This document shows, piece by piece, positions 6,043 to 28,812 of a stretch of 32,000 nt of DNA. Source of the stretch: Candidatus Saccharimonadota bacterium (lineage in GTDB: Bacteria; Patescibacteriota; Saccharimonadia; Saccharimonadales; Saccharimonadaceae); contig CP075337.1 of NCBI GenBank assembly GCA_025349965.1, positions 150,001 to 182,000 of the forward strand. The letters run 5' to 3'. Position 1 is the stretch's first letter; the number at the start of each line of letters is the position of its first letter. The notes under the pieces are model-generated. The model was not told the DNA's origin. It did no database searches and was given only the letters and a program-made list of their open reading frames with translations. The translations under genes and the position numbers were made by a program.

Positions 6043-6069
6043 TTAGCACTCTTGACACGAGAGTGCTAA
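6043..6069 (+). promoter_or_regulatory. CIRCE operator (HrcA binding site), perfect consensus
   Basis: TTAGCACTC-N9-GAGTGCTAA read exactly (ttagcactc ttgacacga gagtgctaa), 100 nt upstream of dnaK. Confidence 0.95.
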
Positions 6070-6088: not shown

Positions 6089-6115
6089 TTGGCAGTCTAC
6101 ACAGAAGAGTGCTAA
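6089..6115 (+). promoter_or_regulatory. second, imperfect CIRCE operator in tandem
   Basis: ttGgcaGtc-N9-gagtgctaa has two mismatches in the left arm and a perfect right arm with the correct 9-nt spacer. It covers the predicted transcription start. Confidence 0.7.
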
Positions 6116-8494: not shown

Positions 8495-8521
8495 TTAGCA
8501 CTCTAGACATATGAGTGCTAA
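8495..8521 (+). promoter_or_regulatory. CIRCE operator, perfect consensus, upstream of dnaJ
   Basis: ttagcactc tagacatat gagtgctaa. It is followed by -10 TATACT at 8527-8532 and then ATG 8544. Confidence 0.95.
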
Positions 8522-9712: not shown

Positions 9713-10150
9713 ATGCAAGAAGAAACTGTTATTATTGGCTGTCTTGAGCAAGTTGCCTTCCCGGCGCTTCTTATTGACGAAGTCATGGCAAAGATTGATA
9801 CTGGTGCGTATTCAGGTGCGCTGCATTGTAACAAGATTGATGTCATCGACCGTGATGGTGTCCGAACGCTTCGCTATCAGCCAATTCACGAAAGTAGTGA
9901 GTTTATTGAGACGCAAGATTTCGTATCTACTCATGTGACAAGCTCAAATGGCCAGCGACACAAGCGCTATATTATTGAAACGCCTATACTCATTCGTGGC
10001 AAACAGTATACAATGAGGATTGGACTGACGGATAGGTCAGATATGAAAATAGACGTGCTTATTGGGCGTCGTTTCCTTAGAAAAAATAACATGATTGTTG
10101 ATGTACGCATCGGCGCAGAATTTGATGAAGACGGTGGAGGAAAAGAATAA
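9713..10150 (+). CDS. putative ATP-dependent zinc protease / retropepsin-like family protein of the kind commonly encoded next to rimK (RimB-like)
   Basis: 145 aa. The pattern IGCLEQVAFPALLIDEVMAKIDTGAYSGALHC...VLIGRRFL matches this family. It lies immediately upstream of rimK, with no gap between its stop and the rimK ATG. Confidence 0.7.
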   Translation: MQEETVIIGCLEQVAFPALLIDEVMAKIDTGAYSGALHCNKIDVIDRDGVRTLRYQPIHESSEFIETQDFVSTHVTSSNGQRHKRYIIETPILIRGKQYTMRIGLTDRSDMKIDVLIGRRFLRKNNMIVDVRIGAEFDEDGGGKE

Positions 10151-11062
10151 ATGAAAATTGCGATTTTATCAAACGGTCCAGGAAATTACTCCACAAAGCG
10201 TCTCAAAGAAGAGGCGTTGAAGCGTGGTCACGAAGTTGACATTATTAAGTATCGCGACTGCTATGCTTCAATCGAAAAGAACAGTCCAACTGTTAGCTAT
10301 CGTGGTGAAGATCTCGGCAAGTATGATGCTATTATTCCTCGTATTTCGGCAAACATGACTCGTTATGGTACGGCGATTGTTCGTCAACTTGAAATGCAGG
10401 GTGTGTACACCATCTCGAGCTCTCTTGCGATTAACCGTTCACGCGACAAGCTCCGCAGTATGCAGATTCTTGCAAAGGCAGGCGTAGGAATTCCGAAGAC
10501 AGTGTTCTCCCGTAATTCTGCTGATATCGATGACCTTATCGATAAACTCGGTGGTACACCGGTAATTATTAAGTTGGCACGTGGAACACACGGAAATGGT
10601 GTTGTTCTTGCGGAAACAAAGAAGGCGGCAAAGTCTGTACTGCAGGCGTTCTACCTTACAAACGAAGACGGTACAAACATCTTGATTCAGGAGTTTATTA
10701 AAGAGTCGGCCGGTACTGATATTCGTGCCTTTGTTGTTGGTGGACGTGTGGTTGCAAGTATGAAGCGTCAAAGTCTTGATGATGATTTCCGTTCCAATCT
10801 TCACAAGGGCGGTCAAGGTACTGTCGTGAAGCTGACGCTTGAAGAGCGCAAGATGGCGGTACGTGCAGCTAAGGCAATGGGCCTCAACGTTGCTGGTGTC
10901 GACCTTATGCGTTCAGAGCAAGGTCCTCTAATCCTTGAAGTAAACGCTAGTCCTGGGTTTGGTATCGAGACTGTTACTAAGCGCAATGTAGCACTTCCAA
11001 TTATTGAGTATATTGAGCTCAATGCGAAGCGTCGCAACAAAAAAGACAAAGTCGGCGCCTAA
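10151..11062 (+). CDS. rimK: RimK-family ATP-grasp ligase (ribosomal protein S6--L-glutamate ligase type)
   Basis: 303 aa with MKIAILS..., ATP-grasp motifs (IIKLARGTHGNGVVL, IQEFI, GVDLMRS...LILEVNASPG) and a basic C-terminal tail. A GGAGG SD is present. Confidence 0.9.
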   Translation: MKIAILSNGPGNYSTKRLKEEALKRGHEVDIIKYRDCYASIEKNSPTVSYRGEDLGKYDAIIPRISANMTRYGTAIVRQLEMQGVYTISSSLAINRSRDKLRSMQILAKAGVGIPKTVFSRNSADIDDLIDKLGGTPVIIKLARGTHGNGVVLAETKKAAKSVLQAFYLTNEDGTNILIQEFIKESAGTDIRAFVVGGRVVASMKRQSLDDDFRSNLHKGGQGTVVKLTLEERKMAVRAAKAMGLNVAGVDLMRSEQGPLILEVNASPGFGIETVTKRNVALPIIEYIELNAKRRNKKDKVGA

Positions 11063-14722: not shown

Positions 14723-16192
14723 ATGTGGCGGATACATAGAAAAATTCAAGTTGAATGGCGTATTGCTTGCCTCTGCGCGGGGCTTCTTGTTGGCGTGGCA
14801 TTAGCCCCTGTTTTAAGGGTGAATACTTTTTGGGGCCTTGCTGCCATTATTCCTATTTGTACTCTTCTTTTAGTAGGGCGGTTTTACGCTTCTTTGCCCC
14901 TTCTCCTGCTTGCGATGCTTGCAGGGTTGGGGTATGGGTCAACGGCATACGGGGAAGGCTATGATGTGTATAAGCCTTTTATTGAGCATACTGTTACGCT
15001 TCAGGGCCGAGTTAAAGAAGATCCATCCGTAAATAGCGCAGGCTATAAATCTTTGCAGCTCGGGTCAATCCAGGTAAGGGGAAGTCCATATGCCGGGAGT
15101 GTTTTTACGCGAATGCGAACAAAAGTAACTGTTATGCGAGGTGATACTGTCACTGTGCAGGGGGTTGCCGAGGCTGGGTTTGGGAGTTTTTCCCTGAATC
15201 TTAAAAATGCTTCTATTGTGAGTGTTGAACGCCAGTCCATGGGGGATGTCGGGCGTGTTATTCGCGATTGGTTTGCGGGCCACGTGCGGAGTTTTATTGA
15301 TGAGCCACAGGCGAGCCTTGGTGTAGGATATTTAACTGGGCAAAAAAGCGCATTACCCGATGATTTTTCCGAGGCGCTTAAAATAGCGGGGCTTACGCAT
15401 GTTGTGGTTGCGAGTGGCTATAATTTGACTGTACTTGTGCGGTTGGCTCGTAAATTATTTATGCGTATTTCTAAATTTAGTGCTGCAATGGCTGCTGTTG
15501 GCATGGTGTTGATGTTCATGACCATTACTGGCCTTAGCCCAAGCATGACGCGTGCCGGAATCGTCTCCGGATTGAGTATTCTGTTTTGGTATTACGGAAG
15601 GAAAGTGCACCCAATTGTACTCTTGCTTTTTGTTGCAACGCTTACAGTGCTATATCAACCTAGTTACTTATGGGGTGACTTAGGATGGCAACTCAGCTTT
15701 TCGGCATTCTTTGGCGTGATGATTATTGGTCCACTCATGCAGCGCTACTTCTATGGCGAGGTGTCACCCGGGCTTATTCGTCAGACACTCATGGAGACTG
15801 TCGCCGCTCATATAGCAACAGTGCCAATTATTGCGCTACAGTTTGGAGTTGTTTCCAATATTGCAATTGTCGCTAACTTGCTCGTTGTTCCGCTTGTTCC
15901 GTTAGCGATGCTTTTGACGTTTATTTGCGGTATTTGGTCGGTATGCGGCATTGGGTTTTCGCAACTTATTATTTGGCCAACGAATGTGCTACTTGAATAT
16001 ATGGTTGCAGTCGTAAGGTACGTTGCAGAGATAAAGTGGGCACAGAGCGCACTGGAATTTTCTGGTAGTGTCTGGCTTTTGTATCTCGCTGCTGTTTTGC
16101 TTGTTTGTTGGTGGATGAAGCGGGCAACGAAATTGAACCTAAGAACCGGTGATATACTTAACCCCTATAAGACTGATGCGAAGGTTATTTAA
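14723..16192 (+). CDS. comEC: ComEC/Rec2-family DNA internalization channel protein, short form without the C-terminal metallo-beta-lactamase domain
   Basis: 489 aa. It has an N-terminal OB/DUF4131-like part (VTLQGRVKEDP...), a polytopic competence domain (LKIAGLTHVVVASGYNLTVL, MTITGLSPSMTRAG), and no HxHxDH motif. Confidence 0.85.
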   Translation: MWRIHRKIQVEWRIACLCAGLLVGVALAPVLRVNTFWGLAAIIPICTLLLVGRFYASLPLLLLAMLAGLGYGSTAYGEGYDVYKPFIEHTVTLQGRVKEDPSVNSAGYKSLQLGSIQVRGSPYAGSVFTRMRTKVTVMRGDTVTVQGVAEAGFGSFSLNLKNASIVSVERQSMGDVGRVIRDWFAGHVRSFIDEPQASLGVGYLTGQKSALPDDFSEALKIAGLTHVVVASGYNLTVLVRLARKLFMRISKFSAAMAAVGMVLMFMTITGLSPSMTRAGIVSGLSILFWYYGRKVHPIVLLLFVATLTVLYQPSYLWGDLGWQLSFSAFFGVMIIGPLMQRYFYGEVSPGLIRQTLMETVAAHIATVPIIALQFGVVSNIAIVANLLVVPLVPLAMLLTFICGIWSVCGIGFSQLIIWPTNVLLEYMVAVVRYVAEIKWAQSALEFSGSVWLLYLAAVLLVCWWMKRATKLNLRTGDILNPYKTDAKVI

Positions 16193-16920
16193 CGTGGGCG
16201 TGTAAGTGCAACAGTTCGAGCCCGCATTGCAATACTATCATCGATAGATTGACCGTTAAACTCGCCGTATCGACGCTTTGCGGCTGTACTAATGAGGTAA
16301 TCCGCTATGGCTGGATTCTTTGGAAGAAGTGACCCGTGAAGGTATGTGCCGATTACGTTTTTATAGAGCACACCTTCGTGGTCGTCCGTAGTATTATTAC
16401 CAGCGCCTATGCGTACTAGCCCAAGCGGTGTAAGCGGTTCTTCGAAATATGTTTGGCCGCTATGGTTTTCGTAACCGATGATAGTACCGAATGTTTCACT
16501 TTCTAGGGTAATATTGCCAACAAGTCGTTCTTTGCCGCCAATAGTTTTAGTATTGAATACTCGGATACCTTCGAGTGTTGTGCCCGTGTGCGTAGTAAAG
16601 CTATTGCCAAAGAGCTGATAGAGCCCGCAAACAAGTAGCATGGGAAGTCCGTCATCAGCGGCGTTTCTAAAGAATTTTCCATTAGAGAGAAGGTCTTGGT
16701 GAATAACATTCTGCCCACTGTCCTGTCCGCCACCCCCAATGATGAGGTCTATGTCGGAGAGATTCGGCAGAGTATCTTCTGGATTGTATTCAATAACACT
16801 GGGTGTATAGCCGTGCCACTCAAGGCGCTTTACGAGCACTTGAACATTGCCATTATCGCCATAGATATTCATATCGCGCGGATAAAGGTGAAGAATTGTA
16901 ATTACGGGTTTTTTACTCAT
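16189..16920 (-). CDS. gatD: lipid II isoglutaminyl synthase glutaminase subunit GatD (CobQ-type glutamine amidotransferase)
   Basis: 243 aa with ILHLYPRDMNIYGDNGN, nucleophile context LLVCGLYQLFG and a GTYLHGSLLPKNP His region. ATGA overlap with murT. Confidence 0.9.
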   Translation of the reverse strand: MSKKPVITILHLYPRDMNIYGDNGNVQVLVKRLEWHGYTPSVIEYNPEDTLPNLSDIDLIIGGGGQDSGQNVIHQDLLSNGKFFRNAADDGLPMLLVCGLYQLFGNSFTTHTGTTLEGIRVFNTKTIGGKERLVGNITLESETFGTIIGYENHSGQTYFEEPLTPLGLVRIGAGNNTTDDHEGVLYKNVIGTYLHGSLLPKNPAIADYLISTAAKRRYGEFNGQSIDDSIAMRARTVALTRPR

Positions 16921-18209
16921 GTGATATCCTCAACTTTTGTATACTTTGCAAGATGTTTTCTAATTGCGAGCATTGCAGTGTAGGTGCAGTAGATGCGTTT
17001 TGGCTCGTTGGCATGGCGTTGTAATAGCATGGTGACGGATTTTTGAATATCCGTATCGCTGCTTCGGAGTGCGACGTCATCATAGTGAAGTCGAAGTGCC
17101 ATATCATCGGCGCGGATGCCTGTGGTGTAGACCGGGTGGTCTTTGAGGCTCGTGAAGTCAACATCCCATAACCAAGACATGTCGCGTCCGTCGGCATAAT
17201 TATCGTTAATAGCAATGAGTGTTGCATACCCCGCAGGAGAGTAAGATGAAAGACCGAGTTTAAAGCCTGCCGGGTTTTTTATGAGTACGAGTTCGACTGG
17301 CTGGTCGTCGACCATAAAGGTTTCACCACGGCCAAAAGCTGGAGTAATTTCCGCTAGTGCCTTCATAAGTTTTTCTACTTTTGCATTGGGAGTAATTGTC
17401 AATACGAGAGACAGCGCCGCTGCGCTATTGAAGATATTATACGCACCCTTAAGCTGAAGTTCTGTAGTGTGCTGTGTTTCCTGTACGTCGTAAGTGGCGC
17501 TTGATTGTGAAAAGCTTTTCAGTGTAACAAGGGGTGCCTTTGGCAGTTGAGGGAGAGTGGTTGGCGTATTTTTTGTGTGGTGTGAATCGTCACTCGGAAA
17601 ATACCCAAGAAGTGATGAATCGAGGCCAAAGTATTCGACGGTCTGTTCTTTTTTTAGTGTATCAGCAATAGAGCTGACTCGAGTATCCGTTCCGTTGAGC
17701 ACTACGGTTTGAGTAGTATTTTCCGCAATTACTTTGAGCATCGTGCGTGTAGTATCAATTTCACCAAAGCGATCAAGCTGATCACGGAGGACGTTTAGCA
17801 AAAGGCTGAAGCGAGGCTTGACAACATTGACGAATTTAACGGCGTGCGCCTCGTCGAGTTCAAGTACAGCGATATCTGCATTAAGCTTTCCGGTGACAGA
17901 TATTTCACCCAAGAGTGCTGCTGCGACGCCACGCACAAAATTACTCCCTGTTCGGTTTGTGAATACCTTTAGTCCTTGGCTCTCTAGGAGGGATACTACC
18001 ATTTTTGTGGTTGTCGTTTTTCCGTTTGTCCCGCTGATTACAACAACACCCTGGGGGAGTTTTTTGAGTGTGCGAGGAACGAAGTCTGGATCGATTTTCT
18101 CTACAAACAACCCCGGGAGTGCCGAGCCGCTGCCACCACGGAGGCGAGCTGCCTGACGAACAGCTTTACCGAAAATAATTGTGAACGGTTTGGGTATGTG
18201 TTTTGGCAT
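16917..18209 (-). CDS. murT: lipid II isoglutaminyl synthase ligase subunit MurT (Mur ligase family with C-terminal DUF1727)
   Basis: 430 aa with a Mur ligase P-loop ISGTNGKTTTTKM, the C-terminal DGRDMSWLWDVDF motif, and pairing with gatD. Confidence 0.9.
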   Translation of the reverse strand: MPKHIPKPFTIIFGKAVRQAARLRGGSGSALPGLFVEKIDPDFVPRTLKKLPQGVVVISGTNGKTTTTKMVVSLLESQGLKVFTNRTGSNFVRGVAAALLGEISVTGKLNADIAVLELDEAHAVKFVNVVKPRFSLLLNVLRDQLDRFGEIDTTRTMLKVIAENTTQTVVLNGTDTRVSSIADTLKKEQTVEYFGLDSSLLGYFPSDDSHHTKNTPTTLPQLPKAPLVTLKSFSQSSATYDVQETQHTTELQLKGAYNIFNSAAALSLVLTITPNAKVEKLMKALAEITPAFGRGETFMVDDQPVELVLIKNPAGFKLGLSSYSPAGYATLIAINDNYADGRDMSWLWDVDFTSLKDHPVYTTGIRADDMALRLHYDDVALRSSDTDIQKSVTMLLQRHANEPKRIYCTYTAMLAIRKHLAKYTKVEDIT

Positions 18210-18237
18210 ATCTATTATTATACTCTATACTATAACT

Positions 18238-18621
18238 ATGTTCTTGGTGGGACTTATTACATGGTGGTATGGGCGTGGCTGGATAGAGCAGTGGCGTCGC
18301 AATGGGGGTATGTTTATGCGCACCCTTGAATTCTTTTCGGTTGGACAGCTTGCGGCGACGCTTTTCTCGCCATTCCGCCAGATTTCAGCAGGTAATAGGG
18401 GAAATGGGTCTTTTGCCTCTGCTTTTAGTGCCTTTTTTGATAGGTTAATATCACGAATTGTCGGTGCGTTCGTCCGCGGTTTTACGATCATTGCCGGTGT
18501 CATAGTAATTGCCCTACAGGCGCTTTACGTGGCGGTTATCATGGCGTTTTGGTGGTTCGTCCCGCTACTTCCCTTGGTTGGATTTGTCGCTTTCATGATA
18601 GGATGGGTGCCTCGTGGATAA
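18238..18621 (+). CDS. hypothetical small membrane protein, translationally coupled to the downstream AAA+ gene
   Basis: Start chosen at ATG 18238, 6 nt after -10 TATACT (18226-18231). It has an N-terminal TM and two C-terminal TMs. Its stop TAA (18619-18621) overlaps the GTG 18614 start of the next gene. Confidence 0.55.
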   Translation: MFLVGLITWWYGRGWIEQWRRNGGMFMRTLEFFSVGQLAATLFSPFRQISAGNRGNGSFASAFSAFFDRLISRIVGAFVRGFTIIAGVIVIALQALYVAVIMAFWWFVPLLPLVGFVAFMIGWVPRG

Positions 18622-21028
18622 AACTCTCTTCAACTGGCATAGTCGCCGTGCACGATTAGCGCGATACGGGCATGCGCTTCGTGCGTGGGTACTTGTTATC
18701 ACGATTCTTTCGGCTGCTTTAATTATTCTGGGTATCTTTGCGCTTGTTGCGGGTCTTGCATTTGGCTGGTTGCTTATTGGATTTGCGGCATTACCAGCAA
18801 TGGTCGTCCAGTGGTACAATTATGAACTTTCAGCATTACCGAACGAAAAAAGCAATTCGAGTATTGATGCAGTTATGGATACGGAGCTCTTGTCGCTTCT
18901 TTCGCAAAACCCCTCTCCTAAAGAGCTGGCGGTTCGACTTAATGAAACGAATGGTGGGTTATTTTTTGAAGTGCGGTTTGGGCTTGGTGGTGGCTTCTTC
19001 AAAGAGGTTGCCACTGATAACCCTGCTGACACAGCCGCTATTTTCAATGAGGCATTAAGTATTGCCAGTCAAGTTGGCGGTAGGGTGAGCCCCGGGGTAA
19101 TTATCCTTGCGATGGTGCGTCAACTTCCAATGAAGCAGACAGTGCTGGGGCATTTACAGCTATCTGAAGATGATCTCATGACGGGTATTATCTGGTACCA
19201 CCGGCTTCATGAGCTGGCAAATAAGAGCAAGAAGCAAACAAAACAGCCGGGTGGGGTTGGGCGTGATTGGTCATTTGGCTGGATTCCAACGTTGCAGCGT
19301 TTTGGTGTGTCACTTGCGCATGGTGGCACGGCATCCCGCAATGATGTGCGTACTGCGCAGGTTGGGCAGCTGATTGGTACGCTTGGTTCTGGCGGCGGTA
19401 CGATTGGTATTATTGGACGTGATGGTGTAGGGAAGACTGAACTGGTTCGTGAACTTGCGAATACTCTGATGCGACCAGATAAATCAGTGCCACGTGGGCT
19501 TTGGTATCAGCAGGTATTTATGCTTGATGCGTCTCGCATTCTTTCTGCGGGAAACGAGCGGGGTGCTGTTGAACAGATTGTTGGTGCAATTCTTGGCGAG
19601 GCCTATGCTGCAAAAAATATCATCGTGTGCTTTGACAATGCGGAGCTCTTTTTCCAAGATGGTGTTGGCTCAGTCGATATCTCAAATCTATTAACGCCAA
19701 TCGTTGAAGCGGGGCGACTCCGCATGATTATGACGATTGATGAGCAGAACTTCCTTCGCATCAGCAAACAGGCGCCGGCGTTGGCAAATTCAATGACGCG
19801 CGTCATAGTGCAGCCAACAGATGAGAAGGATACTATCCGTGTTCTAGAGGATCATATTCCGTTCCTGGAGTATAAGCGTAAAAACACTTTTATGTACCAA
19901 GCACTAAAAGAAGCATACCGTTTGAGTCAACGCTATGTGTACGATGTGTCTATGCCGGGACAAGCGATTCGTCTTCTCGAGCAATCAGCCGAGCATGCCG
20001 AAGGTGGCAAACTCGTTTCGGCTCGTTCTGTTGCGCAGGCGATTGAGCATATGACGGGCGTGAAGACGGGCGCGGCGGCCGGCGATGAAGAGCGCGAAAT
20101 GCTGCTTAATCTTGAGGCGCGTATTCATGAGCGAATGATTGGGCAAGAACGGGCGGTGAGTGTTGTTGCAGACGCGCTGCGTCGTGCGCGGTCTGGTGTA
20201 CGCAATCAGAATCGTCCTGTCGGTACATTCTTATTCCTTGGCCCAACTGGTGTTGGTAAGACGGAGCTCGCAAAGTCATTAGCAGAAGTGTATTTCGGCG
20301 GTGAACAGAACATTATTCGTCTTGATATGAATGAGTTCGTGTCGCCAGATGATGTTGCACGTTTAATTGCGGATGGTGCGGATGATGCAGGTAGTCTTGC
20401 TGCACAGGTGATGAAGCAACCCTTTAGCGTAGTGCTTCTGGATGAGCTAGAGAAGGCGCATTCAAGTGTACTCACAACCCTTTTACAACTCCTCGACGAG
20501 GGTGTGCTGCGGGATGTTCGTGGGCGTGAAGTAAGTTTTAGGGATACAGTTGTAATCGCAACAAGTAACGCTGGTGCAAGCCGTATTCAAGAATATATTC
20601 AGCGTGGCTACACGCTTCAGCAGTTTGAAGAGACATTTATAAATGAGCTCATTAGTGGCCATATTTTCCATCCTGAATTTTTGAACCGTTTTGATGAAAT
20701 GGTGGTCTTTTCGCCACTCTCTAAGCCAGAGTTGCTCCAAGTTGTTGATCTCATCTTGAAGGGTGTTAATAAAAACCTTGCCGAGCAACAAATTACTATT
20801 TCTGTCACACCTGATGCGAAAGAGTACTTGGTTGAGAGAGGATATGATCCTCGGCTTGGTGCGCGTCCAATGCGTCGCGTGGTGCAACGTGCGGTTGAAA
20901 GCACGGTGGCAAAACTACTCCTCTCTAATGCTGCAACGCCGGGAAGCGTTATTGAACTTACCAAGGAGCAGGTTGAGGCTGTGCTTGGTCCTGAGCAGCA
21001 AGCCCAAGCAATTATTTCGGGACAATAA
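18614..21028 (+). CDS. membrane-anchored Clp/Hsp100-family double-AAA+ ATPase, atypical (no M-domain, no pore-loop Tyr, degenerate D1)
   Basis: 804 aa. A TM hairpin spans aa 24-66, followed by a Clp_N-like segment (VSPGVIILAMVRQ). D1 has Walker A GRDGVGKT but Walker B IIVCFDNAE. D2 is canonical (GPTGVGKT, VVLLDELEKAH, GARPMRRVV). Confidence 0.85.
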   Translation: MDKTLFNWHSRRARLARYGHALRAWVLVITILSAALIILGIFALVAGLAFGWLLIGFAALPAMVVQWYNYELSALPNEKSNSSIDAVMDTELLSLLSQNPSPKELAVRLNETNGGLFFEVRFGLGGGFFKEVATDNPADTAAIFNEALSIASQVGGRVSPGVIILAMVRQLPMKQTVLGHLQLSEDDLMTGIIWYHRLHELANKSKKQTKQPGGVGRDWSFGWIPTLQRFGVSLAHGGTASRNDVRTAQVGQLIGTLGSGGGTIGIIGRDGVGKTELVRELANTLMRPDKSVPRGLWYQQVFMLDASRILSAGNERGAVEQIVGAILGEAYAAKNIIVCFDNAELFFQDGVGSVDISNLLTPIVEAGRLRMIMTIDEQNFLRISKQAPALANSMTRVIVQPTDEKDTIRVLEDHIPFLEYKRKNTFMYQALKEAYRLSQRYVYDVSMPGQAIRLLEQSAEHAEGGKLVSARSVAQAIEHMTGVKTGAAAGDEEREMLLNLEARIHERMIGQERAVSVVADALRRARSGVRNQNRPVGTFLFLGPTGVGKTELAKSLAEVYFGGEQNIIRLDMNEFVSPDDVARLIADGADDAGSLAAQVMKQPFSVVLLDELEKAHSSVLTTLLQLLDEGVLRDVRGREVSFRDTVVIATSNAGASRIQEYIQRGYTLQQFEETFINELISGHIFHPEFLNRFDEMVVFSPLSKPELLQVVDLILKGVNKNLAEQQITISVTPDAKEYLVERGYDPRLGARPMRRVVQRAVESTVAKLLLSNAATPGSVIELTKEQVEAVLGPEQQAQAIISGQ

Positions 21029-21058
21029 AATAACCCCAAAGCTGGGGTTATTATTTCC
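21029..21058. terminator. rho-independent terminator between the AAA+ gene and convergent tRNA-His
   Basis: Perfect 10-bp stem aataacccca/tggggttatt (21029-21038 and 21043-21052) with loop aagc and a following T-rich tail. Confidence 0.8.
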
Positions 21059-21071
21059 TTAAGATCTCATC

Positions 21072-21149
21072 TGGGGCGAATGAAGGGAATCGAACCCTCG
21101 GCCTCCGGAACCACAACCCGGCGCTCTAACCAACTGAGCTACATCCGCC
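21072..21149 (-). tRNA. tRNA-His(GTG) with genome-encoded G-1 and CCA
   Basis: Reverse complement: G(-1) GCGGATG TA GCTC AGTTGGTTA GAGC G CCGGG TTGTGGT TCCGG ... GAGGG TTCGATT CCCTT CATTCGC C CCA. The anticodon is GTG, and G-1 lies opposite discriminator C73. Confidence 0.93.
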
Positions 21150-21253: not shown

Positions 21254-21328
21254 GCGGGCGTCGTATAATGGCTAATATACGTGCCTTCCAAGCATGTGAT
21301 GAGAGTTCGATTCTCTCCGCCCGCACCA
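21254..21328 (+). tRNA. tRNA-Gly(TCC), CCA encoded
   Basis: Acceptor GCGGGCG/CGCCCGC, anticodon arm CGTGC-CTTCCAA-GCATG, T arm GAGAG-TTCGATT-CTCTC, discriminator A, then CCA. Confidence 0.93.
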
Positions 21329-27279: not shown

Positions 27280-28812
27280 CTACTCTGTAATGTCTTTAAT
27301 GACACTAATCTTCGCGCCGAGTTTATTAAGACGATTCGCAAGATCTTCGTAGCCACGGTTAATGACGTAGATGTTCCGGAGTGTGGAAATACCAGGGGCT
27401 GCAATCATCGCAAGGAGCACAACCACTCCTGGGCGTAGTGCGGGCGGGGTGACAATCTCAGCTGGCTTCCACTTTGTAGGACCTTCAATATATACACGGT
27501 GCGGATCAACCATCTCAACCTTTGCGTTAAGTTTGGTGAGCTCCGTAAGATAGATGGCGCGGTTTTCATAGACCCAGTCATGGATGAGCGTCCTGCCTTT
27601 CGCCGTAGCTGCAATGAGCGCGAAGAAGGGGAGGTTGTCGATGTTAAGCCCTGGGAATGGGAGTGGATGAATCTTATCAGTAGACGCCTTGAGGCTGCTT
27701 TGCTTTGTAGTAATGTCTACAAGGCGAGTGTGGCCGTTGTGCGCGGCGTATTCTTCCGATAATTCATATACAAAGCCCATATTCTCGAGGACTTGAAGCT
27801 CAATTTCAAGAAATTCAATTGGTGCGCGCTTGATGGTGATTTCGGATTTTGTGACAATCGCTGCTGCAATAAAGCTCATTGCTTCAATTGGGTCTTCTGA
27901 AGGATAGTATTCGACATCAACGTTGATATCTCGCTTACCGGTTACGGTAAGTGTTGTTGTACCGATGCCATCAATCTTCACGCCAAGCTTTTCGAGGTAG
28001 AAGCAGAGGTCTTGCACCATGTAATTTGGGCTTGCGTTACGGATAATTGTTGTACCGTCATTTAGTGCGGCGGCCATAAGGATATTCTCGGTCACGGTGT
28101 CTCCGCGCTCGGAAAGGACAATCGCACGGGTCGGTTTCTTTTCCGCGACAGACGCAATGTAGCTGTCGGATGTTGTGTTTACTTCAAGACCAAATACTTT
28201 CAGGCCATCAAGGTGCGGCTCAACGGTGCGTTCACCAAGGCTGCAACCGCCAGCGAATGGGATATTGAAGCTACGATATTGGTGAAGGAGTGGGCCAAGG
28301 AACATAATAATGCTGCGCGTACGCTTAGCGGCGTTTACATCCATTTTCTCAAGCTTGAGGCGTGCAGGCGGTGTGATTTCAAGATTATTATCACCAAACC
28401 AGCGAGTCTTCACGCCAATACTATTGAGGACTTCGATGAGACGGTTTACTTCTTCTATGCGCGCGACATGCTTTAGGGTAGTTGTGCCACGGTTAAGGAG
28501 TGACGCGCAGAGGAGTGCTACTGCCGCATTTTTACTTGTCTTAGTGGTGATTTCGCCACTAAGCTTGTGACCGCCTTCGATGCGGAGATTAATAGATCCT
28601 GGTTGATTCAGGCTTACGATTTGACTTGAAAGTACGTCGCTTATTCGGGCGAGCATATCAAGGCTGATATTTTGACCACCTTTTTCAATACGATTAATGG
28701 CACTTTGACTTGTTCCAAGCTCTTTCGCAAGCTCTGCCTGTGTCATGCCTCGTGATTGACGAGTTTCTTGAATAAGGGTTCCGATTTTCTCAGCGTAATT
28801 TCGTGTTTCCAT
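27280..28812 (-). CDS. murA: fusion protein: N-terminal XRE-family helix-turn-helix domain + UDP-N-acetylglucosamine 1-carboxyvinyltransferase (MurA)
   Basis: 510 aa. Residues 1-70 read IQETRQSRGMTQAELAKELGTSQSAINRIEKGGQNISLDMLARISDVL (XRE HTH). The remainder is full-length MurA with a conserved Lys (TSKNAA), catalytic Cys-Arg loop (FAGGCSLGERTVEPH), Asp (LNIDNLPFF) and C-terminal Arg (PPALRPG). Confidence 0.88.
   Translation of the reverse strand: METRNYAEKIGTLIQETRQSRGMTQAELAKELGTSQSAINRIEKGGQNISLDMLARISDVLSSQIVSLNQPGSINLRIEGGHKLSGEITTKTSKNAAVALLCASLLNRGTTTLKHVARIEEVNRLIEVLNSIGVKTRWFGDNNLEITPPARLKLEKMDVNAAKRTRSIIMFLGPLLHQYRSFNIPFAGGCSLGERTVEPHLDGLKVFGLEVNTTSDSYIASVAEKKPTRAIVLSERGDTVTENILMAAALNDGTTIIRNASPNYMVQDLCFYLEKLGVKIDGIGTTTLTVTGKRDINVDVEYYPSEDPIEAMSFIAAAIVTKSEITIKRAPIEFLEIELQVLENMGFVYELSEEYAAHNGHTRLVDITTKQSSLKASTDKIHPLPFPGLNIDNLPFFALIAATAKGRTLIHDWVYENRAIYLTELTKLNAKVEMVDPHRVYIEGPTKWKPAEIVTPPALRPGVVVLLAMIAAPGISTLRNIYVINRGYEDLANRLNKLGAKISVIKDITE

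What the first reader, a model, noticed from the sequence alone, without database searches (positions are those of the whole stretch)
18238..21028. Two-gene module: small membrane protein coupled to a membrane-anchored Clp/Hsp100-like ATPase stripped of its threading machinery
Seen in sequence:
- The 127-aa membrane protein's stop (18619-18621) overlaps the GTG start (18614) of an 804-aa double-AAA+ protein.
- That protein begins with a TM hairpin (aa ~24-66, nt ~18683-18811) instead of being soluble. A Clp_N-like segment follows.
- Measured against Hsp100 motif knowledge (ClpA/B/C), D1 keeps Walker A (GRDGVGKT). Its Walker B is IIVCFDNAE, with Asn where the catalytic Glu of hhhhDE is expected (nt ~19628-19645).
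- The D1 pore-loop position reads AGNERGAVE, with no aromatic where KYRGEFE is expected.
- D2 has canonical Walker A/B, arginine finger and sensor-2. However, the GYVGY pore loop is replaced by a shorter ADGADDAGS segment (nt ~20360-20401).
- There is no coiled-coil M-domain between D1 and D2, only a short ClpA-like linker.
- There is no IGF/IGL-type ClpP-docking tripeptide in D2 (region ASRIQEYIQRGYTLQQFEE).

Inference: this protein is unlikely to be a conventional unfoldase, disaggregase or ClpP partner. It looks like an ATP-driven membrane machine of unknown function, working with the co-translated small membrane protein.
Basis: partly seen in the sequence, partly recalled or inferred. Interest (0 to 1): 0.7.

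Follow-up and report, generated by a model that had tools for sequence, protein, structure and literature searches.

The report
Membrane-anchored Clp-like ATPase with small partner
Saccharibacteria carry a conserved two-gene operon for a membrane-anchored relative of the ClpA/B/C protein-unfolding ATPases that has lost the loops such machines use to grip and thread proteins, always paired with a small membrane protein; its function is unknown, and no studied bacterial Hsp100 looks like it.

Summary
The window comes from Candidatus Saccharibacteria bacterium TM7i. A 127-aa membrane protein gene (18238-18621) overlaps by 8 nt the GTG start of an 804-aa double-AAA+ protein (18614-21028).

The ATPase has a basic N-tail, a two-helix membrane hairpin and a remote Clp_N-fold domain. 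A strongly conserved GGxARDWxxG[YW]xPxL motif follows. D1 keeps Walker A but has lost both arginine fingers and the pore-loop tyrosine. Its Walker B Glu is mostly replaced. D2 is fully catalytic, but its GYVGY pore loop is deleted. There is no M-domain and no ClpP-docking loop.

In 85 complete orthologues (30-76% identity), every D2 catalytic residue is invariant, and no sequence has an aromatic at either pore-loop tyrosine position. The small gene sits directly upstream in all 107 testable species genomes, usually with a 4-nt overlap. The family is essentially confined to Saccharibacteria.

Published Tn-seq on the apparent Southlakia orthologues (SEML1_0700/0701) gives both genes the same late growth defect. 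That genome also has a canonical ClpC-like gene and ClpP.

My reading is a D2-powered, non-threading, membrane-tethered remodelling ATPase acting with its partner. The mechanism is inferred. It is a new variant of a known kind.

The parts
18203..18231 (+). Promoter-like site TTGGCA-17-TATACT. It ends 6 nt before the small gene's ATG, so the transcript may be leaderless. The -35 lies inside the first codons of the divergent MurT gene.
   Evidence: The match is 10 of 12, but the number of such sites in the region equals chance, so only the position is suggestive.
18238..18621 (+). Small membrane protein, 127 aa. The N-terminal ~75 aa are conserved and net-positive (motifs WWYGxGW, FSxxxLxxTLFxPFRQI, DxxxSRxxG). 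A C-terminal two-helix hydrophobic hairpin spans aa 76-124, with a conserved W...P.
   Evidence: (1225 homologues, 121-138 aa among the best 120 apart from one 170-aa entry, no Pfam). No Pfam, PDB or PADLOC relatives.
18614..18621 (+). Stop/start overlap GTGGATAA, with an AGGA Shine-Dalgarno-like box at about 18601-18604. This is a translational-coupling junction.
   Evidence: In 105 orthologous loci a start lies within -16 to +11 nt of the small gene's stop in about 100, and -4 is the commonest value (43 loci).
18614..21028 (+). Double-AAA+ Clp/Hsp100-derived ATPase, 804 aa, membrane-anchored.
18614..18682 (+). Basic N-terminal tail (aa 1-23, with K3, R11, R12, R14, R17 and R23), predicted cytoplasmic.
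   Evidence: Sequence. The S/R-R-A-x-x-A-R pattern is conserved.
18683..18814 (+). Two-helix transmembrane hairpin (aa 24-67) with a very short outer loop and conserved GW, G, P and W residues.
18815..19228 (+). Divergent Clp_N-fold domain (aa 68-205).
   Evidence: Searches support it. Pfam Clp_N does not hit.
19250..19294 (+). Family signature motif GGVGRDWSFGWIPTL (aa 213-227). It is the most conserved stretch outside D2 and is predicted disordered, so it is a candidate binding site.
   Evidence: 0.87 bits entropy, 63% mean identity. (pLDDT below 50). As a DNA pattern it retrieved 117 true loci out of 120.
19397..20056 (+). D1 AAA+ module (aa 262-481). Walker A is at 19412-19438, the pore loop AGNERGAVE at 19547-19573, Walker B IIVCFDNAE at 19619-19645, and the finger-less PALANSMTR at 19775-19801. 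There is no M-domain insertion.
20132..20713 (+). D2 AAA+ module (aa 507-700, Pfam AAA_2). Walker A is at 20240-20266, the truncated pore loop LIADGADDAGSL at 20363-20398, Walker B VVLLDELE at 20429-20452, sensor-1 N652 at 20567-20569 and Arg finger R692 at 20687-20689. There is no ClpP-docking loop.
20714..20968 (+). D2-small domain (aa 701-785, Pfam ClpB_D2-small) with the sensor-2 motif GARPMRR (R751 at 20864-20866).
21029..21052 (.). Terminator-like hairpin AATAACCCCAAAGCTGGGGTTATT immediately after the stop codon. It can be read on both strands and is shared with the convergent tRNA-His gene.

Best explanation
SHOWN. This is a self-contained two-gene operon, conserved across Saccharibacteria.
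- It encodes a small integral membrane protein and, translationally coupled to it, a membrane-anchored paralogue of the class-I Clp/Hsp100 ATPases.
- D2 keeps every catalytic residue.
- D1 keeps its nucleotide-binding P-loop but has lost both trans-acting arginine fingers and, in most members, the catalytic Glu.
- Neither ring has an aromatic pore-loop-1 residue. The M-domain and the ClpP-docking loop are absent.
- Both proteins expose almost nothing outside the membrane.

INFERRED.
- The protein forms a Clp-like hexamer held on the inner face of the membrane by 12 helices.
- D1 acts as an ATP-bound assembly ring (as NSF-D2 does), and D2 is the only motor.
- Lacking gripping loops, the machine does not thread, unfold, disaggregate or feed a protease.
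- Instead, D2 hydrolysis drives rigid-body movements. These pass through the Clp_N-like domain and the conserved GGxARDWxxG[YW]xPxL linker to the membrane hairpins and the small partner.
- That would remodel or switch a membrane-embedded assembly.

This would be a Torsin/LAP1-like or Bcs1-like way of working, not a ClpB-like one. The cellular process it serves is not known. The published Tn-seq says it is dispensable but contributes to fitness in co-culture.
For: - Architecture and motifs are.
- Across 85 complete orthologues (30-76% identity), D2 K549, D610, E611, N652, R692 and R751 are invariant. D1 K274 is also invariant. The D1 position aligned to the pore-loop Tyr is never aromatic. The D2 loop is 9 aa in 74 of 85 sequences, against 14 aa in ClpB, and never holds an aromatic. 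D1 Arg-finger positions hold R in 0 of 85 and 4 of 85.
- Pore-loop columns are as variable as linkers, while D2 is the most constrained domain.
- The pair is present in all 107 testable species genomes with a coupled junction. No other neighbour is conserved throughout.
- The N-terminal region defines a small family of 192 representatives among 1.84 billion proteins. It is found almost only in Saccharibacteria-labelled genomes.
- In Southlakia, SEML1_0700 and SEML1_0701 share the same Tn-seq calls (NE, NE, GD). ClpP (SEML1_0493) and a UVR-containing ClpC-like gene (SEML1_0512) exist separately (PMC10633639 Table S1/S2). General Clp proteolysis is therefore covered by other genes.
- CIRCE operators lie upstream of dnaK and dnaJ in the window, but none lies near this operon.
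Against: - No experiment or structure bears on the mechanism. The hexamer, the partner contact and the non-threading mode are all inferences.
- Identification of the Southlakia orthologues rests on gene sizes, the overlap, MurT/GatD synteny and Pfam coordinates, not on an alignment I could run.
- Eleven of 85 members keep a canonical DE in D1 Walker B, so D1 may hydrolyse ATP in some lineages.
- The conserved aromatic-rich linker motif would sit near the D1 channel mouth. It could be a substitute substrate-binding element, which would rescue a threading model.
- The one natural fusion of the two proteins (L046) has an odd number of membrane helices, which does not fit my topology.
- AF2 confidence for D2 is only moderate.
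Confidence: 0.45

Rival explanations
1. It is still a threading motor. On this view it is a membrane-tethered extractase or unfoldase for membrane or secreted proteins, in the style of Msp1, FtsH or PTEX-HSP101. It would grip substrates with non-canonical elements, such as the conserved W/Y-rich GGxARDWxxG[YW]xP linker at the ring entrance, and the small protein would act as adaptor or conduit.
For: - The whole Clp double-ring scaffold and D2 catalysis are preserved.
- A Clp_N-fold domain, which binds substrates or adaptors in relatives, is kept.
- The linker motif is aromatic-rich and extremely conserved.
- Membrane-anchored AAA+ extractases are known (my own knowledge of Msp1 and FtsH; PMC7018516 was listed).
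Against: - No aromatic occupies either pore-loop tyrosine position in 85 of 85 sequences.
- The D2 loop is deleted and highly variable.
- From established knowledge of ClpB/Hsp104, Tyr-to-Ala changes in these loops abolish translocation.
- There is no protease domain, no ClpP loop and no M-domain.
- The linker motif is predicted disordered and lies outside the rings.
Confidence: 0.2
2. It is a cell-envelope factor functionally tied to lipid II amidation by MurT/GatD, for example assembling or regulating a membrane-associated peptidoglycan-precursor complex.
For: - MurT and GatD are divergently adjacent in the window, with only 28 nt between the start codons. The same holds in 45 and 36 of 117 loci respectively, and in Southlakia.
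- The ATPase is held at the membrane, where lipid II is made.
Against: - The adjacency is confined to one subclade (roughly 46% ATPase identity or more) and is absent from the other ~60% of loci, whereas the small-protein pairing is universal. It may therefore be inherited synteny.
- MurT and GatD are essential in Tn-seq, but this pair is not.
Confidence: 0.12
3. It is a decaying Clp paralogue or pseudo-enzyme that serves only as a scaffold, or has no function.
For: D1 motifs and both pore loops have degenerated. The pair is non-essential in Tn-seq.
Against: - All D2 catalytic residues are invariant in 85 of 85 sequences across 30-76% identity.
- The family is retained in reduced genomes of about 0.7-1 Mb in every testable species, together with its partner and a coupled junction.
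- Insertion mutants show a growth defect by the last passage.
Confidence: 0.04
4. It is a conflict or defence module, for example a Dodola-like ClpB-family ATPase or a two-helix effector of the SLATT type.
For: D2 gives a partial hit to PADLOC DolB (7.6e-33, aa 493-653). The membrane hairpin gives a non-significant SLATT_1 hit (E 0.13).
Against: - The hits reflect generic Clp-D2 similarity over part of the model, and no DolA is present.
- The pair is a single-copy, syntenic, vertically conserved core gene pair.
- It is absent from viral contigs.
- G+C content does not differ from the surroundings.
Confidence: 0.02

Closest known systems
ClpB / Hsp104 disaggregases
   Same: It has two AAA+ modules plus a D2-small domain. 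D2 gives the best sequence match (T. thermophilus ClpB 1qvr, E 5e-99; D2 aligns without gaps over the ClpP-loop region). It has a Clp_N-fold N-domain and no ClpP loop.
   Different: - It has no M-domain, so no DnaK coupling is expected.
- It lacks the pore-loop tyrosines.
- D1 lacks its Arg fingers and usually its catalytic Glu.
- It has an N-terminal membrane hairpin and an obligate membrane partner.
- It scores 396 bits against the 1232-bit TIGR03346 cut-off.
ClpA and ClpC (ClpP-activating unfoldases)
   Same: The domain order N-D1-D2 with a short D1-D2 connection resembles ClpA, which aligns in one piece over aa 266-793. The top Foldseek hits are ClpC chains.
   Different: - It has no IGL/VGF ClpP-docking loop and no UVR or M-domain.
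- It has no pore-loop aromatics.
- It is membrane-anchored.
- It scores 344 bits against the 993-bit TIGR02639 cut-off.
- The same lineage keeps a separate canonical ClpC-like gene and ClpP.
Torsin ATPases with LAP1/LULL1 (eukaryotic; from my own knowledge, with PMC5425593 listed)
   Same: Torsins are Hsp100-D2-related AAA+ proteins without aromatic pore loops. They work at a membrane together with a membrane-spanning partner and are thought not to thread substrates. This is a functional analogy only.
   Different: Torsin has a single AAA+ module, sits in the ER lumen, and lacks its own arginine finger, which the cofactor supplies. Here D2 has its own finger, there are two rings, the protein itself is membrane-inserted, and the partner is a 127-aa protein with no AAA-like fold.
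Membrane-anchored AAA+ machines: FtsH, Msp1, Bcs1, archaeal LonB (from my own knowledge)
   Same: All have an N-terminal membrane anchor holding a ring ATPase at the cytoplasmic or matrix face. Bcs1 is a precedent for a membrane AAA protein that moves cargo without classical threading.
   Different: These are single-ring proteins of other AAA+ clades. FtsH and LonB carry protease domains, and FtsH and Msp1 use aromatic pore loops. None is a class-I Hsp100, and none has this small partner.

Membership tests
Class-I Clp/Hsp100 AAA+ superfamily (ClpA/B/C/E/L/V) | Two tandem AAA+ modules (D1 classic, D2 of AAA_2 type) followed by a D2-small domain | tested here: met
   Pfam AAA_2 at E 4e-47, ClpB_D2-small at 5e-23 and a weak AAA_lid_9 hit. 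PDB phmmer hits to ClpB, ClpC, ClpA and ClpE at E 1e-74 to 5e-99. Foldseek E 8e-41.
Class-I Clp/Hsp100 AAA+ superfamily (ClpA/B/C/E/L/V) | Clp_N double-repeat N-terminal domain | tested here: inconclusive
   Pfam Clp_N is not hit in 29 of 29 members. The family profile hits Clp/Hsp104 N-domains only, at E 0.014-0.2. For the AF2 domain, nearly all of the Foldseek top 50 are Clp-family N-domains, but E is about 0.01 and TM 0.45-0.54. The fold is probably retained, but the sequence signature is lost.
Class-I Clp/Hsp100 AAA+ superfamily (ClpA/B/C/E/L/V) | Aromatic pore-loop-1 residues (KYR in D1, GYVG in D2) for substrate threading | tested here: not met
   alignment (Y aligns to E315; GYVGY is deleted). 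In 85 of 85 orthologues neither tyrosine position holds an aromatic. The columns are highly variable.
Class-I Clp/Hsp100 AAA+ superfamily (ClpA/B/C/E/L/V) | Catalytically competent D1 (Walker B DE and trans arginine fingers) | tested here: not met
   N342 stands at the Glu position (family counts: N 45, D 28, E 11, G 1). The finger positions hold R in 0 of 85 and 4 of 85. Walker A is intact in 85 of 85.
ClpB/Hsp104 (TIGR03346) | Coiled-coil M-domain inserted in the D1 small domain; curated equivalog score | tested here: not met
   ClpB residues about 393-505 are unmatched. The score is 395.7 bits against a cut-off of 1232.1.
ClpA / ClpC (ClpP partners; TIGR02639) | ClpP-docking loop (IGL or VGF) in D2; curated equivalog score | tested here: not met
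   A 7-residue gap lies opposite the GFGGSSDG loop of ClpC. The score is 344.2 bits against a cut-off of 993.
Dodola defence system (DolB) | Full-length DolB match with an adjacent DolA | tested here: not met
   Only D2 aa 493-653 match positions 126-278 of the 375-position model. No DolA-like neighbour is present. The pair is a conserved core gene pair.
New Saccharibacteria TM-Clp family with its small partner (defined here) | N-terminal two-helix hairpin, GGxARDWxxG[YW]xPxL motif, truncated D2 pore loop, and an upstream coupled gene for a protein of about 127 aa with WWYGxGW and TLFxPFRQI motifs | tested here: met
   The window shows all four features. They are shared by 117 loci from species-representative genomes.

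The most novel reading that the evidence does not exclude
This would be a bacterial, membrane-embedded Hsp100 that has given up polypeptide threading altogether. A double ring whose only motor is D2 would work on or through a ring of small membrane subunits. That would make it a prokaryotic counterpart of the Torsin/cofactor or Bcs1 principle, invented within Patescibacteria and serving an envelope or membrane process specific to the epibiotic lifestyle. It would be a new mechanistic class within the Clp/Hsp100 family.
Probability: 0.3. Interest if true: 0.8.

Novelty: new variant of a known kind. Interest (0 to 1): 0.6.

Why it matters
Clp/Hsp100 ATPases are the textbook case of substrate threading by aromatic pore loops. 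This family keeps a perfectly conserved D2 motor while discarding both pore-loop tyrosines, the D1 arginine fingers, the M-domain and the ClpP loop. It also gains a membrane anchor and an obligate membrane partner. A family like that tests what else the scaffold can do.

It is conserved throughout Saccharibacteria. These are ultrasmall epibionts with heavily reduced genomes, in which most conserved genes of unknown function are suspected to underlie their unusual biology. The organism is now genetically tractable, and the apparent Southlakia orthologues already show a fitness phenotype in published Tn-seq, so the question can be tested directly.

Tried and rejected
- Pfam and NCBIfam on the small protein and on the N-terminal region gave nothing significant. 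The only hits were weak ones from transmembrane composition (SLATT_1 at E 0.13, DUF2207_C at 0.017).
- PADLOC gave only partial generic D2 hits.
- A viral-contig scan found no relatives.
I replaced it with a hand-built degenerate DNA pattern of the signature motif.
- BLAST hinted that the small protein's WWYGRGW...TLEFFSV resembles the ATPase's GRDWSFGW..TLQRFGV. Profile-profile comparison showed no relationship (probability 0.85%), so I rejected it as chance.
- The listing of cluster members on 10 distant representatives returned no names, so it gave no taxonomy.
- Literature searches for a membrane-anchored or pore-loop-less Hsp100, and for Clp in Saccharibacteria, found no description of this family.
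- TM7x transcriptome papers mention a 'predicted clp protease/clpB' TM7x_03020, listed as a hypothetical protein and up 0.79 log2 in recovery. I could not establish whether it is this family.
- I looked for a conserved third gene in the neighbourhood. None exists beyond MurT/GatD in one subclade.
- I did not attempt a fused-chain structure prediction of the pair.


Full report
**1. What is in the window**

The window matches Candidatus Saccharibacteria bacterium TM7i. The ATPase is 100% identical to an NCBI protein from a 780,698-bp contig.

On the + strand, an ATG at 18238 opens a 127-aa ORF that ends at TAA 18619-18621. A GTG at 18614 opens an 804-aa ORF that ends at 21028. The two overlap in GTGGATAA, and an AGGA box lies about 10 nt upstream of the GTG. 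Homologues of both proteins begin at the same residues, which supports these start codons.

A promoter-like site (TTGGCA-17-TATACT, 18203-18231) ends 6 nt before the ATG. A hairpin (21029-21052) follows the stop codon directly. The pair therefore looks like a self-contained operon.

The surrounding genes are as follows.
- Upstream on the opposite strand lie MurT (16917-18209) and GatD (16189-16920).
- Further upstream lie ComEC, a P-type ATPase, RimK, DnaJ, DnaK and GrpE.
- Downstream lie tRNA-His, tRNA-Gly and an iron-permease-family gene.

G+C content is uniform across the region.

**2.

The HMMER alignment to T. thermophilus ClpB and S. aureus ClpC reproduces each item.
- D1 Walker A is GRDGVGKT.
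- D1 Walker B is IIVCFDNAE, opposite ILFIDELH in ClpB.
- The D1 pore loop AGNERGAVE sits opposite AKYRGEFE, so the Tyr aligns to E315.
- In D2, LIAD-----GADDAGSL sits opposite LIGAPPGYVGYEEGGQL.
- D2 Walker A and B, sensor-1 N652, Arg finger R692 and sensor-2 R751 are all in place.
- ClpB residues about 393-505 (the M-domain) have no counterpart, whereas ClpA aligns in one piece (aa 266-793).
- The alignment to ClpC has a 7-residue gap exactly at the GF-containing ClpP loop.

Pfam sees AAA_2 and ClpB_D2-small, but D1 gets only generic P-loop hits and Clp_N gets none. All NCBIfam equivalogs score far below their cut-offs: ClpB 396 against 1232, and ClpA 344 against 993.

The two D1 arginine fingers (ALERRF in ClpB) read ALANSM here.

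The membrane hairpin is supported by hydropathy (aa 19-67). AF2 also supports it, with helices 11-45 and 50-72 at pLDDT about 90. The preceding tail is strongly basic and the loop between the helices is very short. The ATPase domains are therefore cytoplasmic and almost nothing is exposed outside.

The small protein has a net-positive N-terminal region of about 75 aa and a C-terminal hydrophobic hairpin (aa 76-124).

**3. The N-domain**

Pfam Clp_N is not detected in any of 29 diverse members.

A profile of the N-terminal region searched against PDB sequences gives Clp/Hsp104 N-domains as its top nine hits (E 0.014-0.2). Each aligns the second Clp_N repeat to profile positions 143-196.

An AF2 model of aa 68-262 (pLDDT 80-89 over the domain) gives Clp-family N-domains as nearly all of its top 50 Foldseek hits. 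Probability reaches 1.0, E is about 0.01, TM is 0.45-0.54, and 130-140 columns align. I accept a divergent Clp_N fold.

Between this domain and D1 lies GGVGRDWSFGWIPTL (aa 213-227). It is the most conserved stretch outside D2, with 0.87 bits of column entropy, yet it is predicted disordered.

**4. The family**

phmmer with aa 1-262 against 1.84 billion representative proteins finds only 192 hits. Full-length members are 777-840 aa.

In 30 representatives (35-67% identity) the architecture and motif pattern persist.

I back-translated the signature motif into a degenerate DNA pattern and scanned one genome per GTDB species. The scan stopped at its 120-locus limit. By tblastn, 117 loci encode the ATPase. 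The three that do not are chance matches in Verrucomicrobiales, Nitrospira and Chloroflexia.

Nearly all true hits are labelled Saccharibacteria, Saccharimonadales, Nanosynbacter and the like. A few MAGs carry other submitter labels (Berkelbacteria, Dormiibacterota, Parcubacteria, Nomurabacteria), which I could not verify.

Across 85 complete orthologues (30-76% identity to the query), searches give the following counts.

| Position | Finding in 85 sequences |
|---|---|
| D1 G268, G271, G273, K274 | invariant |
| D1 Walker B second acidic position | N 45, D 28, E 11, G 1 |
| D1 Arg-finger positions | R in 0 and in 4 |
| D1 position aligned to the pore-loop Tyr | never aromatic (G 48; the rest small or polar) |
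| D2 K549, D610, E611, N652, R692, R751 | invariant |
| D2 loop length | 9 aa in 74 (14 aa in ClpB); never contains an aromatic |

By domain, D2 is the most constrained (62% mean identity, 1.21 bits) and D1 much less so (37%, 1.98 bits). The two pore-loop segments are as free as linkers, at 2.43 and 2.30 bits.

In summary, D2 is under strong selection as an ATPase and D1 as a nucleotide binder. The channel loops are not under selection as grips.

**5. The partner**

The small protein has 1225 homologues, 121-138 aa among the best 120 listed (one entry is 170 aa), with no Pfam domain. Diverse members share these features.
- the motif WWYGxGW;
- the motif FSxxxLxxTLFxP[FW][RK]xI;
- the motif DxxxSRxxG;
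- a W...P in the second helix.

No relatives appear in Pfam, PDB or PADLOC, and the family shows no relationship to the ATPase N-region.

Synteny results are as follows.
- In 106 of 117 loci, tblastn finds the small gene directly upstream on the same strand.
- Ten of the remaining 11 are cut off at a locus or contig edge.
- The last, L086, has the gene by HMM at E 7e-37.
- The pair is therefore present in all 107 testable genomes.
- A start codon lies within -16 to +11 nt of the small gene's stop in about 100 of 105 loci, and the commonest arrangement is a 4-nt overlap (43 loci).

MurT and GatD are adjacent in only 45 and 36 loci, all within one subclade. No other neighbour is conserved.

One MAG (L046) encodes the two proteins as a single 888-aa ORF. 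That fits a physical association, but the fusion has three membrane helices, an odd number I cannot reconcile with the predicted topologies. I treat it as unexplained.

**6. Published data**

Table S1 and S2 of Wang et al. 2023 (PMC10633639) list two Southlakia epibionticum genes. SEML1_0700 is an 'AAA family ATPase' of 2583 nt, with AAA_2 at aa 544-706 and D2-small at 713-792. SEML1_0701 is a hypothetical gene of 384 nt that overlaps it by 22 nt. The pair is divergently adjacent to MurT (0702) and GatD (0703).

I infer orthology from these features; I could not align the sequences.

Both genes are called non-essential at T0 and T1 and growth-defective at T2. Normalised reads fall from 4124 to 2517 to 1638 for SEML1_0700, and from 258 to 157 to 51 for SEML1_0701.

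The same genome has ClpP (SEML1_0493) and a separate 2472-nt Clp ATPase with a UVR domain (SEML1_0512); both are non-essential. This family is therefore an extra paralogue, not the lineage's only Hsp100. The paper's text does not discuss these genes.

In the window, perfect CIRCE operators precede dnaK and dnaJ, but none lies near this operon. That argues mildly against membership of the classical heat-shock regulon.

**7. Interpretation**

What is shown:
- a lineage-wide, translationally coupled two-gene module;
- a class-I Hsp100 scaffold that is membrane-inserted;
- a D2 that is catalytically intact, and a D1 that has its P-loop but no fingers;
- no pore-loop aromatic, no M-domain and no ClpP loop.

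What I infer:
- The protein forms a hexamer on the inner membrane face.
- D1 is an ATP-bound assembly ring and D2 is the sole motor.
- The output is rigid-body work transmitted through the Clp_N-like domain and the conserved linker motif to the hairpins and the small partner.
- This is a non-threading remodelling machine, comparable in principle to Torsin with LAP1, or to Bcs1.

I put this at about 0.45. The rivals and my confidence in each are:
- an unconventional threading or extraction motor (0.2);
- a role tied to MurT/GatD and the envelope (0.12);
- a decaying pseudo-enzyme (0.04);
- a defence module (0.02).

The cellular process remains unknown.

**8. Novelty and score**

The genes are in public databases, annotated as ClpC or a Clp ATP-binding subunit plus a hypothetical protein, and they appear in one Tn-seq table. 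I found no description of the family or of its peculiarities. It fails defining tests for ClpB, ClpA and ClpC while clearly descending from them. I classify it as a new variant of a known kind.

Interest is 0.6. An AAA+ specialist would be surprised by a membrane-anchored Hsp100 that kept its motor and lost its grips, and the host organism is now genetically tractable. Against that, the phenotype is mild and the mechanism is inferred only.

Noticed in passing
window 6043-6069, 6089-6115, 8495-8521: CIRCE (HrcA operator) inverted repeats lie upstream of dnaK and dnaJ: two perfect copies and one with two mismatches. Chance expectation is 0.01. None lies near the small/ATPase operon.
   Followed up: partly
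L046 (JBASTP010000006.1, 'Patescibacteria group bacterium'), minus strand about 4420-1750: A single 888-aa ORF fuses the small protein to the ATPase. The small protein's second helix and the ATPase's first helix are one and the same, giving three membrane helices. That odd number conflicts with the predicted topologies of the separate proteins. It could be a real fusion, an in-frame deletion or a MAG artefact.
   Followed up: partly
window 27280-28812 (-): A 510-aa ORF joins an N-terminal HTH_3 (XRE-type) DNA-binding domain to an EPSP-synthase/MurA-family domain. This is an unusual fusion.
   Followed up: no
window 18203-18238: Only 28 nt separate the divergent MurT and small-gene start codons. 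A promoter-like -10 box ends 6 nt before the small gene's ATG, which suggests a leaderless transcript. Each gene's promoter must lie inside the other's coding region.
   Followed up: partly
window 21029-21148: A hairpin readable on both strands (21029-21052) lies between the ATPase stop codon and the convergent tRNA-His gene (21072-21148, -). tRNA-Gly follows at 21254-21328 (+).
   Followed up: partly
window 9713-11062: A Zn_protease (PF05618) gene lies immediately upstream of RimK (starts at 9713 and 10151). The RimK end of this arrangement recurs in the 49-20 relative (L001, where RimK is cut at the locus edge).
   Followed up: no
L100, L103, L088, L017, L059, L092: Loci labelled Berkelbacteria, Dormiibacterota, Parcubacteria, Nomurabacteria and Eubacteriales (the last a 1.8-kb contig) also carry family members: the gene pair in five of them, and only the ATPase on the 1.8-kb Eubacteriales contig (L092). 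Either the family reaches sister lineages, or these MAG labels or bins are wrong.
   Followed up: no
TM7x_03020 (literature: PMC10768705 and bioRxiv 10.1101/2022.03.25.485537): A TM7x gene listed as a hypothetical protein is discussed as 'clpB/predicted clp protease'. It rises in the recovery and stable-symbiosis phases (log2 +0.79) while dnaK, dnaJ and grpE fall. It might be this family, but I could not verify that.
   Followed up: partly
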